From: a bacterium
GTDB lineage: Bacteria > Patescibacteriota > Microgenomatia > Curtissbacterales > GWA2-41-24
Assembly (NCBI GenBank): GCA_021813945.1
Contig: JAKAJD010000002.1
Coordinates: 97,343-161,342 of the forward strand
DNA length: 64,000 bases
Direction of reading: 5' to 3'
Made by a program: the position numbers. Shown here one piece after another: positions 39,001 through 45,000 of this stretch. The stretch's first letter is position 1, and every line of letters starts with the position of its first letter.

Positions 39001-42000
39001 AGTTCAGGTTATTATCACCGTACTCTCGATTGACAACACAAACGACCCTGATATTCCGGCACTTATTGCCACGTCTGCTGCACTCGCGATTTCCGACATT
39101 CCCTGGAATGGACCCATTTCAGGCTTAAGAGTTGGTCTAAAAGAGGGTAGTTACATTCTTAATCCTACAGAGGAAGAGCGAGCAGCATCTCAGCTGGAAG
39201 TTTTAGTTGCGTCAACAAAAGATGAAATTGTCATGATCGAGAGCACAGCCAATGAAGTTGATGAAAAAACGATCTCCGGCGCTTTTAAATTTGCTCAAGA
39301 ATCTGGAAAAGCCGTAATTTCTTTAATTGAAGATTTTGCAAAAGCTGTTGGTTTACCCAAACAGGAATACCAAGAAGAAAAATTATCCGCAAAAACTGAG
39401 GAAAAAATTCGCCAATTTATCGAAAAAAATCTCATGGCAGATTTCGAGACCAAGAGCCAAGATGAAGGTTGGTTTGGCGACAGTCTGAAGATACTTGAAG
39501 AGGAATTTCTCAAAAAAGAGGAAAACGCTGAGTTGAAAGAAGCTCAGGACGAGGAAATCAGCACTAAAATTTTAGCTAACATATTGGAAGAAATTGTCAC
39601 CGATAAATTAAGAGACGACATCTTAACTCACAAAAAACGCCCAGACGGCCGAAAACCCGACGAAATTCGCGCGCTTTCGATTAGCGCTGGCTTACTTCCG
39701 CGAACCCATGGTTCAGCAATTTTCCAGCGAGGCGAAACTCAAGTGTTATCAATTGTCACTCTTGGCTCACCGGCACTAGAGCAATTAATAGAGGGTATGT
39801 ATGGTGAAGAAACCAAAAGATATATGCACCATTACAACTTTCCACCATTTTCAACCGGCGAAGCCAAAAGAAGAGGTGCTCCGGGAAGACGCGAAATTGG
39901 CCATGGAGCCTTAGCTGAAAAAGCCCTTGTTCCGGTCATTCCGACATCAGACCAATTTCCCTACACAATTCGTGTGGTATCAGAAGTACTCTCCTCCGCC
40001 GGCTCAACATCTCAAGCCTCTGTTTGTGCCTCAACCCTTGCTCTTATGGATGCCGGTGTTCCAATAAAAGAGCCTGTAGCTGGAATCTCAATTGGTTTGA
40101 TAACCGACAAAAAGGACCGTTCAAAATATGTCACTCTAACCGACATTGCCTATCAAGAAGATGCCCAAGGCGACATGGATTTCAAAGTTGCCGGTACCAA
40201 AAATGGAATAACGGCAATTCAAATGGATATAAAACTAAACGGCCTCTCTCTCAAAATTCTGGACGAAGCCCTCGAAAAAGCCAAATCGGCCAGACTTTTT
40301 CTTCTTGGTGAGATGCAAAAGATTATTCCCGAATCTAGAAAACAGCTTTCCCAGCACGCACCTCGCGTTATCGTTGTCAAAATTGATCCATCAAAAATTG
40401 GTGAAGTTGTCGGTTCAGGTGGCCGCGTGATCAATAAAATCATAGCCGAAACCGGAGCGGCAATTGATATCACCGACGACGGCAATGTCACAATAAGCAG
40501 CAAAGATGCCCAAGCTTGCCAGAAAGCGGCAGAATGGGTTGAGGGAATTGTTAAAGAACCACAGCCTAATGAAGAATACGAAGGAACTGTCAAAAGAATT
40601 ATGAACTTTGGGGCTTTTGTTGAAATATTGCCCGGCAAAGAGGGGCTTGTCCATATTTCTCAGCTTGCCCCTCAAAGAGTAGAAAATGTAGAAGATGTCG
40701 TAAAGATCGGACAAAAAGTCAAAGTAAGGGTTGTCGAGATAGATGACCAGGGAAGGCTTAATCTTTCAATGCTTTTTGGTGACGACATCAAAGATATCCC
40801 CCCACGCGAACCAAGGAGGGATACATCTCGAGGCAGATTTGATAACAGAAGGGGAAGAGACAGAAGATCCGGAGACAGAAGACAGGGGAGAGGACCTAAA
40901 AGGTATTAAAAATGAAGCTTACTCCCAGAATCATTTTGGGAATAGCAGCAACCGCTTTAATTATAGCTTCAATTGCACTGGCAATAGTCTTCACTAAAAA
41001 AGATCAAAGCTATATACTTTTAACTTCAAAAGAAAATCGCTTCGACTTAAATTTCAGAGTCCAAAAGAAAGACCAGGAAAATTTTCAAAAAATTCTTTCC
41101 TCTTTAGAAATACCTCAAGACGTTCAAAATGGCGTTAATTTTCAGCTTGACAGCACTTCATCTGCAAGGCTCAACTTCTTAGCGCCAATAAAAGCCAGTC
41201 TCAATTTAAAAGATAAATCAGTCAACTTATCAGGCGAAACATCTATCCCAATGTTTCTTTACCAATCTTCAATCAATCAAGTTAGATTACCCAAAAGCAC
41301 AAATCTTGCCATTTTCGCACCAAGTCTTGAAAATTTCGTCAAAGCCCGATTAAATCTTCCTCAAAACATCTCTTCTTGGTTGGACAAAAACTTTTCACAG
41401 GCAAATGGAAGTTATCTTGCAGTGTACGGCCCCAACCCCGACTATTCACTGTTGATCAAAAAAGACCAAATCAGCTTTGACGATCTTAGAAATCTAAAAG
41501 ATTCAAACGGCGATGCTATCTATAAAGAAGAATCAAGCGGTGATATTAAACTCCATTTTTTACAAACACCTAGTACAAATTTTCAAGATCAACAAACACT
41601 TACCTTTTTTCAGCTTGGCACATACCAAGTTATGTCTTCGTCACCCGCCGCAGCCAAATCCTTAATTGATGCCCAAAAATCACAAGATTATTATAAGTTT
41701 CCACAAGAAAGCAACCAAAAAGCCGCCTTACTGGCCGAATTTTCAAATTCCAACGAAAACACAATTTCCGACCAAGCCGAAAGTTTCCTGCTCCAATCCT
41801 GGGAACGATCCATAAGTTCAAAAACGAAATTGGCAAGTTCCATAAAGCGAATTAAATTTGCAAGCTTTGCTTTGAAGGAACAGTCGTTTTCTGGTTTAAT
41901 AAATTTAAAGTGAATTCCCAATCTGCCCAGTTCGAGGATATCAACTTTCTCGAAGCTAAATTAAAATCGGCTCAACTTCCCAAAGATTTATATATCAAAG

Positions 42001-45000
42001 CCGCTGCCGATATCGAACGTTTAGTTCGTTTGGCATCTGCTAAAGGTTATGGGGAAGAATATGACGCCGTTTCCAGATATTTGGATTGGATTATAGCTCT
42101 TCCTTGGAACATTAGAAGCCAGGATGTTCTTTCTCTAGAAAATGCCAAAAAAGTTTTAGATGCGAATCATTTTGGTTTGGAACAAGTTAAAGACCGCATT
42201 TTAGAGTTTGTATCAGTCAATAACCTCAGAACAGCCAAAGGAGAAAAAAGCAATTCACCAGCACTTTTACTCTTAGGTCTTGTCGGAACAGGTAAAACTA
42301 CCATGGCTTATTCTGTTGCAGATGCATTGGGCCGAAAATTCGGCAGAATTCCCATGGGTGGAATGGGAGATGCTGCACAGTTAAGAGGAAGATCTCGAGC
42401 TTACCCCGACGCTGAACCGGGGCAAATTATTAAAGTTCTAAGGCGCGTCCAAACCAAAAATCCGGTAATTCTTCTTGATGAAATTGACCGTGTTACCGAA
42501 GAAGCCAGAGCCGATGTCATGGGAGTTTTGGTAGAGCTTTTAGATCCAGAGCAAAATAGCGCTTTTATAGATCACTATATAGATTATCCTGTTGACCTTT
42601 CGGAAGTGCTTTTTATAACAACTGCCAACAACACCGGCAAAATTGCAACTGCCGTTATAGACAGGCTTGAAATTTTGGAAATGCCAAGTTACACCGACCA
42701 ACAAAAAATCATAATCGCCAAAAGTTATCTCTTACCAAGAGACCTTGCCGCATCTGGACTTTCGCCTGGCGACATCCAAATAGAAGAAAAAGTCTGGAGC
42801 CAAATAGTAAGGCCTTTGGGATTTGATGCTGGAATGAGAACACTCGACCGCACAATAAAAAGCATCTGCAGAAAAATAGCCAAACAGAAAGTTGAACAAA
42901 AGGTTTCAAAGGTAACTATTTCCGAGGCAAATTACAAAGAATATTTACCCTCGTACTAACACAGCCTATTCGAAGAAAGGATGAATTACTTGTAATTCAG
43001 CCTATTCGAAGAAAGGGTACAAAGTACCCTATAGCAATTTTATACGCTCTAGTGTAAAATAAAAAAAGATGAAAAAGCGCAAATATAAAAAAGCGAGATC
43101 TGCACCCGTTCATCTAGAAAAAAAGACAATAATAACGGTTCTTGGAATCAGCCTTTTGCTTTTTTCACTCCTCCTTTTAGCATCAATTTTTACCCAAGCA
43201 GGTGCGCTTCTTTCTCTCAAAGATTATTTTTATAATCTATTTGGGATTGGTGTTGTGCTTGTTCCGTTCGTTTTGATTTTATTAAGTTTTCCTCTGCTTT
43301 CCATAAAGCTTAAGTTCATAAGGGCAAATTTAATCATTGGCTTAGTAGGCGCGCTACTTTCTTTTTTGGGAATGATTGCTGCTTTCTCAGAAAACTTGTC
43401 AGGCGTTTTAGGAACTTCACTCTGGCAAGTTACTAAATCGCTCCTTTCACCAATCGGTGCTTTTTTGATGCTAATTTTGGCGTTTGCAGCAACAGTTGTT
43501 ATCGCTTCAAACGCAAACCTTAGCCAAACGGCCAAAATATTAGCACTTATTTTCAAAAAACTTTTGACCCTTTTTAAATTTTTGAAAAAAATAGTCCTTG
43601 GATCTTCCAAACCAAAATTTGTCACTAAAGCAGGACAAAATGCCCCCAAAAATCCTCTTCCCCGCAATTTAGATGCCTCTATTGCCTCAGCTCAAGATGG
43701 CCTTTCTCAAAATATAGTTGTTAACTCGCCCGGACAAACAAAGATTTGGCAGTACCCGCCGCTTTCACTTCTCGCCGACAGTCGCGGTGCCCAAGCCAAT
43801 AGAGGTAACTTAAAACAGAACGCCAACACCATTGAAAAAACACTTGAAAGCTTCGGTATTACCGCCAAAGTCGTCGAAGTAAATCTAGGTCCAACTATTA
43901 CCCAATACGCTTTGGAAATTCCTATGGGAACAAAGCTTTCTAAAATACTGGCCCTTCAAAACGATTTGGCGCTAGCACTTGCAACCTCGACCGGAAACGT
44001 CAGAGTTGAAGCTCCAATACCTGGCAAATCGTTAGTCGGCATAGAAATCCCCAACATTTCACCTGAAATGGTCTCTTTGAAAAATATCCTCTCAAACAGC
44101 AACATGCGAGCCAATAAATCAAAACTGGCTGTTGGTTTGGGCCTTGATGTTTCCGGTAATCCTGTTATAACTGACGTTGCCAGACTCCCTCACGTTTTAG
44201 TTGCCGGTACAACCGGTTCCGGAAAATCGGTACTCATCAACGCTTTAATAGCTACTCTTCTTTTCAGGGCCAGTCCCCAGGAAGTTAAGCTTATATTAGT
44301 TGATCCAAAGCGTGTTGAGTTAACGGAATACAATGATATTCCTCATCTATTAACGCCTGTTATTGTTGAGCCGGAAAAAATATTATCCGCCCTTAAATGG
44401 GCTGCAGGTGAAATGGACAAACGTTACAAACTCTTTCACGACGCCCAAGTCAGAAACATCTCAAGCTACAATGAACTTTCCGGATTCCAGGCACTTCCCT
44501 ATATAGTAATCGTCATAGACGAGTTGCAAAACCTGATGGAATTTGCGCCCGTCGAAGTAGAAGACGTAATCGTTCGTTTGGCCGCAATGGCAAGAGCCAC
44601 AGGGATCCATTTAGTCCTAGCCACGCAAAGGCCATCGGTCGATGTCATAACCGGACTTATTAAAGCTAACATTCCTTGTCGTGTCGCGTTTAATGTTTCA
44701 TCGATGGTCGATTCCAGAGTTATAATTGATTCCCCGGGTGCCGAAAAACTTCTAGGAAAAGGAGACATGCTTTACGTTCCACCGGATGCCTCCAAACCCA
44801 TGAGAATTCAAGGTGTTTTCGTTTCGGACACAGAAATCAGGAACCTAATTAGTTTTCTAAAAAGCTCCGGAATTGCGCCGCAATACACAGAAGAAGTAAC
44901 CCAGATGCCGATTGGCAAAATGAAAGGCGGGGGTGGTGCATCAAGCGGCGACCAGGATGATCTTTTCGAAGAAGCGGTTAGAACCATTTGTCAGTACGAT

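What the first reader, a model, noticed from the sequence alone, without database searches (positions are those of the whole stretch)
40912..42959. Lon AAA+ module with no protease domain, translationally coupled to a membrane-anchored unknown protein
The 349-aa product aligns along the Lon AAA+ module, from the region preceding the ATPase (YLDWIIALPW, HFGLEQVKDRILEF) through Walker A/B and sensor-2. It stops (ISEANYKEYLPSY) about where Lon's S16 Ser-Lys protease domain would begin. The large N-terminal LAN substrate-recognition domain is also missing. No protease-domain-like ORF follows; the next 109 nt are repeat-containing intergenic DNA and then ftsK. Its GTG start overlaps the stop of a 333-aa N-terminally membrane-anchored protein (GTGA), suggesting a two-component, membrane-tethered unfoldase or a Lon regulatory remnant. 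A standalone Lon AAA+ ATPase is unusual.
Basis: partly seen in the sequence, partly recalled or inferred. Interest (0 to 1): 0.6.

Follow-up and report, generated by a model that had tools for sequence, protein, structure and literature searches.

The report
Protease-less Lon ATPase of Patescibacteria
This gene encodes only the ATP-driven motor of the Lon protease, with no cutting domain and no substrate-recognition domain; the same shortened protein is conserved across many ultra-small Patescibacteria with an intact ATPase site but altered substrate-gripping loops, so it is a real, uncharacterised offshoot of Lon rather than a broken gene.

Summary
ORF 41910-42959 encodes a 349-aa protein that matches LonA only over the three-helix bundle and AAA+ module (E. 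coli Lon 252-579). Its GTG start overlaps the TGA stop of a 333-aa N-terminally anchored protein (TM333).

It is not a remnant or an artefact. More than 120 Curtissbacteria clusters are 345-364 aa long. Relatives at 45-59 % identity occur in many Patescibacteria. Together they form one clade (100/100 NJ bootstrap) apart from canonical LonA. No S16 or LAN domain was found in any frame of the window or of 47 related loci, whereas all 38 non-CPR Lon loci had both.

Walker A/B, sensor-1, Arg finger and sensor-2 are invariant. Both pore loops are rewritten: TY[VI]GA[ML]PG becomes xxP[DE]AEPG, and the pore-loop-2 aromatic is lost.

The TM333 pairing is found essentially only in Curtissbacteria. Elsewhere the gene sits directly between pnp and RNase J, or divergent from groES-groEL.

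Most likely this is a stand-alone ring ATPase acting as a chaperone or remodeller, uncoupled from proteolysis. A split Lon with an unlinked peptidase could not be excluded, because whole genomes were not searchable. I rate it a new variant of a known kind, of moderate interest.

The parts
41910..42959 (+). Protease-less Lon-type AAA+ ATPase (349 aa), made of a three-helix bundle, an alpha/beta nucleotide-binding subdomain and a Lon lid. It has no LAN domain and no S16 domain.
   Evidence: Pfam AAA + Lon_lid; TIGR00763 positions 254-572 only; aligned to E. coli Lon 252-579 and to the fragment 6N2I; conserved at this length in Patescibacteria.
42285..42302 (+). Walker A motif GTGKTT (residues 126-131, K129)
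   Evidence: G/K/T invariant in 121 Curtissbacteria-type proteins, in all 18 other protease-less proteins aligned at this position, and in 71 canonical LonA sequences (T in 69, S in 2).
42396..42422 (+). Pore loop 1, R-A-Y-P-D-A-E-P-G (residues 163-171). This is the clade-specific acidic version of the canonical R-T-Y-[VI]-G-A-[ML]-P-G.
   Evidence: E169 is invariant in the Curtissbacteria set and in the diverse alignment A2. The Tyr position is Y in 115 of 121 Curtissbacteria proteins but F/E/Q/H/S/N/R/D in other lineages. Canonical LonA has Y in 70 of 71.
42477..42482 (+). Walker B residues D190-E191
   Evidence: invariant in all three groups.
42495..42518 (+). Pore loop 2 region T-E-E-A-R-A-D-V (residues 196-203). 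The canonical aromatic in [FYW]-R-G-D-P is replaced by Ala199.
   Evidence: canonical LonA has F30/Y21/W5 of 71 at this position; the protease-less proteins have A/S/T. PMC8503904: PL1 Tyr397 and PL2 Trp431 contact substrate in MtaLonA.
42663..42665 (+). Arginine finger R252 (acts in trans)
   Evidence: invariant in all groups, which implies an oligomeric ATPase ring.
42837..42839 (+). Sensor-2 arginine R310 in the lid
   Evidence: invariant in both protease-less groups; R in 70 of 71 canonical LonA.
42930..42956 (+). Conserved C-terminal motif N-Y-K-E-Y-L-P-S-Y-COOH (family consensus N[LVI]Kx[YF][LI]Px[WY]). The protein ends about 4 residues after the point where canonical Lon continues into the linker to the protease domain.
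   Evidence: the last residue is W in 48 and Y in 29 of 121 Curtissbacteria proteins. The same ending is seen in most Microgenomates loci. A second subclade ends LPDQGPLS.
40912..41913 (+). TM333: a 333-aa protein with one N-terminal TM helix (residues 5-27) and an alpha/beta repeat domain. It is restricted to Curtissbacteria (with a partial Daviesbacteria homolog) and evolves fast. Its stop codon overlaps the ATPase start codon.
   Evidence: only 31 homolog clusters; AF2 pLDDT 86, pTM 0.81; no Pfam hit; UniRef names one homolog 'DUF3352 domain-containing protein'.
38263..40909 (+). rpsO and pnp (PNPase), the conserved upstream genes of the operon. pnp ends 2 nt before TM333.
   Evidence: pnp is within 3 genes upstream in 28 of 44 CPR loci and directly upstream in 22.
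42960..43068 (+). 109-nt spacer before ftsK. It holds two exact copies of CAGCCTATTCGAAGAAAGG (42962 and 42998) and folds into three stable hairpins.
   Evidence: the repeat is unique in the window, with 0 matches expected by chance. MFE -29.6 kcal/mol, z = -4.98.
43069..45186 (+). ftsK (705 aa), the conserved downstream gene
   Evidence: 74 % identical to the L001 gene, which carries the FtsK_alpha, FtsK_SpoIIIE and FtsK_gamma Pfam domains.

Best explanation
The 349-aa protein belongs to an ancient clade, found only in Patescibacteria records here, that descends from LonA. The clade has lost both the N-terminal LAN substrate-recognition domain and the C-terminal S16 protease domain. What remains is the three-helix bundle plus the AAA+ module, making it the natural counterpart of the EcLon(235-584) laboratory fragment.

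Shown: the domain architecture, its conservation, its single origin, an intact ATP-binding and hydrolysis site including the trans-acting Arg finger, and the replacement of both substrate-gripping pore loops by a clade-specific acidic [DE]-A-E-P-G loop.

Inferred: it assembles into a ring and hydrolyses ATP. It no longer feeds polypeptides into a fused protease chamber. Instead it works as a stand-alone, Hsp100-like chaperone or remodeller in cytoplasmic protein or RNP quality control. Its substrate contact is no longer the classical aromatic-paddle threading of LonA.

In Curtissbacteria the gene is co-transcribed with rpsO-pnp and with a lineage-specific membrane-anchored protein (TM333). That pairing is a local feature of the operon and does not define the family.
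For: Architecture: (AAA + Lon_lid; lon profile positions 254-572 only; E. coli Lon 252-579; close match to fragment 6N2I).

Conservation and length: more than 120 clusters of 345-364 aa at 67-93 % identity; about 20 other protease-less representative clusters at 43-64 % identity; 42 genome loci in Shapiro-, Ames-, Levy-, Davies-, Roizmanbacteria and others.

No S16 or LAN domain in six-frame translations of 47 CPR loci plus the 64-kb window, with the positive control giving 38 of 38 canonical loci. No Lon_C in relatives by Pfam.

Single clade: 100/100 NJ bootstraps.

Catalytic residues invariant and pore loops rewritten.

Link to chaperone genes: LonAAA is divergent from groES-groEL in 5-6 loci.

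No peptidase gene is consistently adjacent in 44 loci, unlike the clpP-clpX and hslV-hslU operons (established knowledge).

EcLon(235-584) packs as a hexameric spiral without its P domain (PMC6722904).
Against: There is no biochemical evidence. Oligomerisation without the P domain is not shown; in canonical Lon the protease ring contributes to hexamer formation (established knowledge). The rest of the genome could not be searched, so an unlinked S16, ClpP-like or HslV-like partner is not excluded. The conserved C-terminal Px[WY]-COOH could be a docking tail for such a partner. The commonest context (pnp upstream, RNase J downstream) points to RNA metabolism at least as much as to protein folding. 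The AF2 model of the ATPase was of low confidence (pLDDT 62), so no structural inference on the pore was possible.
Confidence: 0.5

Rival explanations
1. Split Lon. The ATPase is the unfoldase half of a two-gene protease and docks, possibly through its conserved C-terminal Px[WY] tail, onto a separately encoded S16 or other chambered peptidase elsewhere in the genome. This would resemble ClpX-ClpP or HslU-HslV.
For: All ATPase residues are intact. The extreme C-terminus is conserved and ends in an aromatic residue. In Curtissbacteria the pore-loop-1 Tyr is retained in 115 of 121 proteins. The genome outside the flanks could not be searched.
Against: No S16 sequence lies within 8-10 kb in 47 loci or in the 64-kb window. 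No peptidase family recurs next to the gene in 44 loci, whereas known two-part AAA+ proteases are usually operonic. The pore-loop aromatics needed for threading are lost in most lineages of the clade.
Confidence: 0.17
2. RNA-decay or RNP remodeller. The ATPase works with PNPase and RNase J, for example by assembling or recycling a degradosome-like complex or by clearing proteins from RNA. This would explain why it sits between pnp and rnj.
For: pnp is upstream in 28 of 44 loci (directly upstream in 22). RNase J is downstream in 25 of 44 (directly downstream in 14). All are on the same strand, often with gaps of 1-50 nt. Canonical Lon binds nucleic acids; the PDB molecule name for the E. coli fragment is 'DNA-binding ATP-dependent protease La'.
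Against: The order rpsO-pnp...rnj...ftsK may simply be ancestral gene order in compact genomes. From memory, a similar neighbourhood exists in Bacillus. The link is broken in the groESL-type and sugar-kinase-type contexts. In Curtissbacteria, RNase J is not adjacent and is not in the window. An acidic pore loop is ill-suited to gripping RNA.
Confidence: 0.15
3. Membrane-tethered two-component machine. TM333 anchors or regulates the ATPase at the membrane, and the two are made in fixed stoichiometry through translational coupling.
For: Adjacency holds in 6 of 6 independent Curtissbacteria loci, with a 4-nt GTGA-type overlap in 4 of 6. At least 10 further co-occurrences are inferred from matching contig lengths. 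TM333 has an invariant C-terminal FSGLINLK motif.
Against: TM333 is absent from the other lineages that have the ATPase, and pnp is directly upstream in 22 of 44 loci. The proteins in the same slot in L035, L045 and L005 are unrelated to TM333. TM333 diverges much faster than the ATPase (27-35 % against 68-75 % identity). At most about 6 residues precede the TM helix, so if the globular domain is extracytoplasmic, as its signal-anchor-like N-terminus suggests, almost nothing is left to contact a cytosolic ATPase. Part of the C-terminal conservation may reflect the overlapping start region of the next gene.
Confidence: 0.07
4. Pseudogene, truncated gene or assembly artefact of an ordinary lon gene.
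For: None beyond the short length.
Against: The same length and the same ends occur in more than 120 clusters on many independent contigs, including contigs of about 1 Mb. The catalytic residues are invariant. No protease-coding remnant occurs in any frame.
Confidence: 0.01

Closest known systems
LonA (endopeptidase La, MEROPS S16.001; e.g. E. coli, B. subtilis and M. taiwanensis Lon)
   Same: The three-helix bundle, the AAA+ alpha/beta subdomain and the Lon-specific lid are colinear and 39-42 % identical. Walker A/B, sensor-1, Arg finger and sensor-2 are all conserved.
   Different: There is no LAN domain, no long coiled-coil part of HI(CC) and no S16 Ser-Lys protease domain. Pore loop 1 is xxP[DE]AEPG instead of TY[VI]GA[ML]PG, and the pore-loop-2 aromatic is lost. 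The protein scores below the TIGR00763 cutoff. The published definition states that all Lon polypeptides contain an A domain followed by a P domain (PMC9569914).
EcLon(235-584) limited-proteolysis fragment (PDB 6N2I)
   Same: The boundaries are almost identical: query residues 12-346 align to fragment residues 12-339. The fragment comprises the C-terminal HI(CC) helices plus the full AAA+ module and forms an open helical hexamer in the crystal.
   Different: 6N2I is a laboratory fragment of a protease. The protein here is a natural, conserved gene product with diverged pore loops and its own conserved C-terminus.
LonC (e.g. Meiothermus taiwanensis LonC)
   Same: It is another Lon-family member in which one of the two activities has been given up (PMC3391209 and PMC13069640, listed).
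   Different: LonC is the mirror image. It keeps the protease domain and has lost ATPase activity. The protein here keeps the ATPase and has no protease domain.
Protease-inactive FtsH relatives (plant FtsHi / Ycf2 motor complex); from my own knowledge, not tested here
   Same: This is a precedent for an AAA+ protease lineage that abandons proteolysis and is kept as an ATP-driven motor.
   Different: They belong to a different AAA+ family (classical clade, M41 domain). The protease domain is retained but inactivated, rather than deleted.
ClpX / HslU (HCLR-clade unfoldases with separately encoded peptidases)
   Same: They are in the same AAA+ clade as Lon and are stand-alone ATPase polypeptides.
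   Different: They are normally encoded next to their peptidase and keep aromatic pore-loop-1 residues. No adjacent peptidase is found here, and the pore-loop aromatics are not conserved. Only weak matches to ClpX and ClpA models were seen.

Membership tests
LonA protease (TIGR00763 / MEROPS S16) | C-terminal S16 Ser-Lys protease domain (Pfam Lon_C, GPSAG motif) | tested here: not met
   No Lon_C hit. No GPSAG motif in any frame. A home-made S16 HMM finds nothing in the window or in 47 CPR loci, but hits 38 of 38 canonical loci.
LonA protease (TIGR00763 / MEROPS S16) | N-terminal LAN substrate-binding domain (PF02190) | tested here: not met
   The alignment starts at lon profile position 254. 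The LAN HMM gives no hit in the CPR loci or the window.
LonA protease (TIGR00763 / MEROPS S16) | Whole-protein score above the curated cutoff | tested here: not met
   343.8 bits against the 608.05 cutoff; 262.5 against 891 for NF008053.
LonA protease (TIGR00763 / MEROPS S16) | Lon-type AAA+ module with the Lon lid and the preceding three-helix bundle | tested here: met
   Pfam AAA + Lon_lid. Full-length alignment to 3M6A, 6N2I and 6U5Z.
LonA protease (TIGR00763 / MEROPS S16) | Pore-loop-1 T-Y-[VI]-G and the pore-loop-2 aromatic that grip substrate | tested here: not met
   The query has A-Y-P-D at pore loop 1 and Ala at the pore-loop-2 aromatic position. Across the clade the Tyr position varies. 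Their role in MtaLonA is described in PMC8503904.
LonB (archaeal or membrane Lon) | Transmembrane insertion within the AAA+ module, plus a B-type protease domain | tested here: not met
   The colinear alignment to LonA shows no insertion between Walker A and Walker B, and there is no protease domain.
LonC | Degenerate, ATPase-inactive AAA-like module plus an active protease domain | tested here: not met
   The Walker A/B, sensor and Arg-finger residues are intact, and there is no protease domain.
Functional AAA+ ring ATPase (HCLR clade) | Walker A Lys, Walker B Asp-Glu, sensor-1 Asn, trans Arg finger and sensor-2 Arg | tested here: met
   K129, D190/E191, R252 and R310 are invariant, and N240 is nearly so (119 of 121), in the Curtissbacteria-type proteins. 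All are conserved in the other protease-less proteins aligned at those positions.
Functional AAA+ ring ATPase (HCLR clade) | Hexamer formation and ATP hydrolysis | not testable with these tools
   This needs purified protein. The monomer AF2 model was of low confidence.
Two-gene AAA+ protease (ClpXP / HslUV type) | A partner peptidase gene that is conserved and usually adjacent | tested here: not met
   No peptidase family recurs within 4 genes on either side in 44 CPR loci. One locus has a secreted-type M23 peptidase downstream. Genome-wide absence was not testable.
DUF3352 (for the upstream TM333 protein) | A significant match to the Pfam DUF3352 model | tested here: not met
   hmmscan at E <= 10 gives no DUF3352 hit for the query or for 4 homologs. 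The name comes only from UniRef, for P0139.
Anti-phage defence ATPases (PADLOC) | A specific match to a defence-system model | tested here: not met
   Only weak, generic AAA matches, the best being DolB at 24.5 bits. The genomic context is housekeeping.

The most novel reading that the evidence does not exclude
Patescibacteria have turned LonA into a new kind of machine: a protease-free ring ATPase with acidic, non-aromatic pore loops and a conserved C-terminal Px[WY] tail. It is co-transcribed with PNPase and RNase J and acts on the RNA-decay or ribosome-associated machinery, or docks onto an unrelated partner, rather than unfolding proteins for degradation. These organisms may then have no Lon proteolysis at all.
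Probability: 0.15. Interest if true: 0.75.

Novelty: new variant of a known kind. Interest (0 to 1): 0.55.

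Why it matters
Lon is defined in the literature as a single chain that carries both an ATPase and a protease (PMC9569914). A large, old and well-conserved clade that keeps only the motor, and has also rewritten both substrate-gripping loops, shows that the Lon AAA+ module can be kept for a job other than feeding a protease. This mirrors LonC, where the ATPase activity was lost instead. It also bears on how the reduced-genome Patescibacteria handle protein quality control, and possibly RNA quality control. 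It provides a natural, stable version of the EcLon(235-584) fragment for structural work. Public databases currently label these proteins either 'AAA family ATPase' or, wrongly, 'ATP-dependent Lon protease'.

Tried and rejected
- **Pseudogene or frameshift remnant.** I searched six-frame translations for GPSAG and with S16 and LAN HMMs and found nothing.
- **AF2 model of the ATPase.** Mean pLDDT was 62, with the alpha/beta core below 50, so I did not use it for fold search or for pore analysis.
- **Heat-shock control.** A CIRCE search found a site only upstream of hrcA (21484-21510). None lies near the ATPase gene or in the groESL-linked loci.
- **Promoter and terminator scans.** Counts were at chance level.
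- **Defence-system membership.** Rejected.
- **Remote homology between TM333 and the proteins in the same slot elsewhere.** Found only for the Daviesbacteria protein in L029. The proteins in L035, L045 and L005 (DUF4012) are unrelated.
- **Literature.** Five searches found no description of a protease-less Lon.
- **Stand-alone S16 or intact lon elsewhere in the genome.** This was not possible.
- **P0213.** This 698-aa Lon on a 1.24-Mb contig looked like a possible CPR Lon with a protease domain, but the organism is not clearly CPR.
- **First phylogeny script.** It timed out and was redone with a faster implementation.

Full report
**Observation.** The window holds two same-strand ORFs. The first, 40912..41913, encodes 333 aa. 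The second, 41910..42959, encodes 349 aa and starts with GTG. The GTG start and the TGA stop share the tetranucleotide GTGA. The 349-aa product has Pfam AAA (119-255) and Lon_lid (281-332) domains and nothing else. Against NCBIfam it matches the 'lon' equivalog TIGR00763 with E = 2e-102. The match covers only profile positions 254-572 of 795 and scores 343.8 bits against a cutoff of 608. Against PDB sequences it aligns end to end with B. subtilis Lon (3M6A), with E. coli Lon residues 252-579 (6U5Z), and almost exactly with the 344-residue E. coli fragment 6N2I. That fragment, EcLon(235-584), was made by limited proteolysis. It comprises the C-terminal helices of the HI(CC) domain plus the complete AAA+ module, and it packs as an open helical hexamer in crystals (PMC6722904).

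**Not a remnant or an artefact.** A search of 5.8 billion proteins returned more than 120 clusters that are 67-93 % identical and all 345-364 aa long. Where they carry names, these are Candidatus Curtissbacteria or Patescibacteria, and several lie on contigs of 0.5-1.08 Mb. An exhaustive search of 1.84 billion cluster representatives found about 20 further protease-less representatives (43-64 % identity, 194-669 aa, some of them fragments) whose match runs to within 8 residues of their C-terminus. Canonical Lons of about 800 aa are only 39-45 % identical. None of the protease-less relatives tested has a Lon_C hit, and their N- or C-terminal extensions are low-complexity sequence. A scan of GTDB species genomes gave 42 loci at 42-59 % identity from Shapiro-, Ames-, Levy-, Davies- and Roizmanbacteria, from records labelled Saccharibacteria and Nomurabacteria, and from several evidently mislabelled MAGs.

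I built S16 and LAN HMMs from 71 canonical Lons and searched six-frame translations. Both domains were found in all 38 non-CPR loci. Neither was found in any of the 47 CPR loci or in the 64-kb window. No GPSAG motif exists in any frame of the window.

**One ancient clade.** In a neighbour-joining tree of the shared region (328 columns, 95 taxa), the protease-less proteins are separated from canonical LonA in 100 of 100 bootstrap replicates, and so is the Curtissbacteria subgroup. Mean identity is 51 % between Curtissbacteria and other protease-less proteins, against 39 % to canonical LonA. The nearest canonical Lons come from Anaerolineales, Clostridiales and Deltaproteobacteria.

**Active site kept, pore loops rewritten.** I mapped every sequence onto the query. 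Walker A K129, Walker B D190/E191, the Arg finger R252 and sensor-2 R310 are invariant, and sensor-1 N240 is present in 119 of 121, among the Curtissbacteria-type proteins. All of them are conserved in the other protease-less proteins aligned at those positions and in canonical LonA. A conserved trans-acting Arg finger implies an oligomeric, hydrolysing ring; this is an inference.

Pore loop 1 is T-Y-[VI]-G-A-[ML]-P-G in canonical LonA, with Y in 70 of 71 sequences. In the protease-less clade it is x-x-P-[DE]-A-E-P-G. The Tyr is kept in Curtissbacteria (115 of 121) but is F, E, Q, H, S, N, R or D in other lineages. Glu169 is invariant in the Curtissbacteria set and in the diverse alignment A2. 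In pore loop 2, the canonical aromatic before R-G-D-P (F, Y or W in 56 of 71) is A, S or T. In MtaLonA, PL1 Tyr397 and PL2 Trp431 are the residues that contact the translocating substrate, and both are required for degradation (PMC8503904). The family also has its own conserved C-terminus, N[LVI]Kx[YF][LI]Px[WY]-COOH. It ends about four residues after the point where canonical Lon continues into the linker to the protease domain.

**Genomic context.** In Curtissbacteria the order nusA-infB-orf303-rpsO-pnp-TM333-LonAAA-ftsK-rodZ-like is conserved in six independent loci. The 4-nt overlap occurs in four of them. The other two have gaps of 45 and 149 nt. The pnp-TM333 junction is just as tight, at 2-8 nt.

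Outside Curtissbacteria the picture changes. Among 44 CPR loci, pnp is upstream in 28 and directly upstream in 22. RNase J (confirmed by Pfam) is downstream in 25 and directly downstream in 14. rpsO appears in 23 loci, ftsK in 19 and a family-4-type UDG in 13. All of these are on the same strand. A second context, seen in 5-6 loci, has groES-groEL transcribed divergently from the ATPase gene, with a convergent RNaseH-like gene after it. A third context places the gene after sugar-metabolism genes. No peptidase family recurs next to the gene.

**The upstream protein.** TM333 has only 31 homolog clusters, even with a profile search. All are about 320-340 aa and come from Curtissbacteria-type contigs. 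At least 10 share a contig length with ATPase hits, so the pair does co-occur within that class. TM333 is by far the fastest-evolving gene of the operon. Against L001 it is 32 % identical, where rpsO is 93 %, pnp 80 %, ftsK 74 % and the ATPase 70 %. AF2 gives a confident model (pLDDT 86, pTM 0.81) with one N-terminal TM helix followed by an alpha/beta repeat domain. No convincing match to a solved structure was found. Pfam finds nothing, and 'DUF3352' is only a UniRef label on one homolog. A 209-aa Daviesbacteria protein in the same slot is homologous over the first module only (hhalign probability 93 %). The proteins in that slot in three other lineages are unrelated to TM333. At most about six residues precede the TM helix. 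If the globular part faces outward, as its signal-anchor-like N-terminus and rapid evolution suggest (inference), it cannot hold a cytosolic ATPase.

**Interpretation.** I am confident about what the protein is: a LonA-derived AAA+ ATPase, restricted to Patescibacteria in the records seen here, that has lost both the LAN domain and the S16 domain. How it works is inferred. The intact catalytic site and Arg finger indicate an ATP-hydrolysing ring. The loss of the fused protease, the absence of an adjacent peptidase gene, and the loss of conserved aromatic pore-loop residues in most lineages argue against a classical degradation motor. They favour a stand-alone chaperone or remodeller, and the groESL linkage in some lineages fits this. 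I put this at about 0.5.

The rivals are:
- a split protease with an unlinked partner (0.17), possibly docked through the conserved C-terminal aromatic tail;
- a role in RNA decay or RNP remodelling, suggested by the pnp-LonAAA-rnj arrangement (0.15), although that order may simply be inherited;
- an artefact (0.01).

**Comparison with known systems.** The protein fails the defining tests for LonA, LonB and LonC, since it has no P domain and is below the curated cutoff. It passes those of a functional HCLR-clade AAA+ ATPase. The current Lon classification states that all Lon polypeptides contain an A domain followed by a P domain (PMC9569914). LonC is the opposite case, with the ATPase activity lost and the protease kept. 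Five literature searches found no description of a protease-less Lon. No NCBIfam model is specific to it, and databases call it 'AAA family ATPase', 'Lon protease 2' or 'ATP-dependent Lon protease'. I therefore rate it a new variant of a known kind, of moderate interest.

**Main limitation.** Only about 10 kb on each side of the gene could be read in related genomes. Whether these organisms encode a separate S16 domain, an intact lon gene or another chambered peptidase elsewhere remains untested.

Noticed in passing
P0143, P0145, P0149 (representatives; not in the window): The highest-scoring database hits are 990-1113-aa proteins with two or three tandem Lon-type AAA+ modules (AAA + Lon_lid repeated), followed by a single Lon_C protease domain. 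A multi-ring Lon of this kind is unusual, and its origin is unknown.
   Followed up: partly
window 42957-43068: The spacer between the ATPase gene and ftsK has two exact copies of CAGCCTATTCGAAGAAAGG, 36 nt apart and unique in the window. It folds into three hairpins (MFE -29.6 kcal/mol, z = -4.98). It could be a terminator or processing site, or a regulator-binding site for ftsK.
   Followed up: partly
window 21484-21510: A CIRCE-like inverted repeat (TTAGCACTC-N9-TATTGCTAA) lies directly upstream of hrcA (21529-22251), which is followed by dnaK (22698-24668). The organism therefore has a classical HrcA/CIRCE heat-shock regulon, but no CIRCE precedes the Lon-type ATPase gene.
   Followed up: partly
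L017, L021, L023, L033, L039, L040 (about 8000 in locus coordinates; about 5200 in L023): In one subclade the ATPase gene is transcribed divergently from groES-groEL and is followed by a convergent RNaseH-like (PF04308) gene of about 160 aa. This context is entirely different from the pnp/rnj one.
   Followed up: partly
L009, L010, L018, L024, L028, L030, L035, L037 and others: A uracil-DNA-glycosylase-superfamily gene (about 190-220 aa) lies within three genes downstream of the ATPase gene in 13 of 44 CPR loci, across both the pnp-type and the sugar-kinase-type contexts.
   Followed up: no
L007, L008, L010, L012, L013, L016, L032 and other loci: Many GTDB-set records labelled 'uncultured Gammaproteobacteria', 'Pseudomonadales' or 'Candidatus Methanoperedens' carry the typical Patescibacteria rpsO-pnp-LonAAA-rnj-ftsK arrangement. 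Their taxon labels look wrong.
   Followed up: no
window 6707-9247 (-) and 49342-51555 (+): Two large ORFs (846 aa and 737 aa) have no Pfam hit at E <= 1e-5. The 737-aa ORF is syntenic with an unannotated 730-763-aa gene upstream of a sortase gene in other Curtissbacteria.
   Followed up: no
window 43069-45186 region; L001, L003, L089-L091: In Curtissbacteria, RNase J is missing from its usual slot between the ATPase gene and ftsK, and it is not in this 64-kb window either. The appearance of TM333 upstream and the loss of rnj downstream distinguish this class from other Microgenomates.
   Followed up: partly
L004, L038, L041, L042 and P0169, P0162: A subclade of the ATPase has long low-complexity (Q/P/S-rich) N-terminal extensions and a different conserved C-terminus (LPDQGPLS). 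In L004 it is followed 4 nt later by an M23 peptidase gene and sits near type-IV-secretion-like genes.
   Followed up: no
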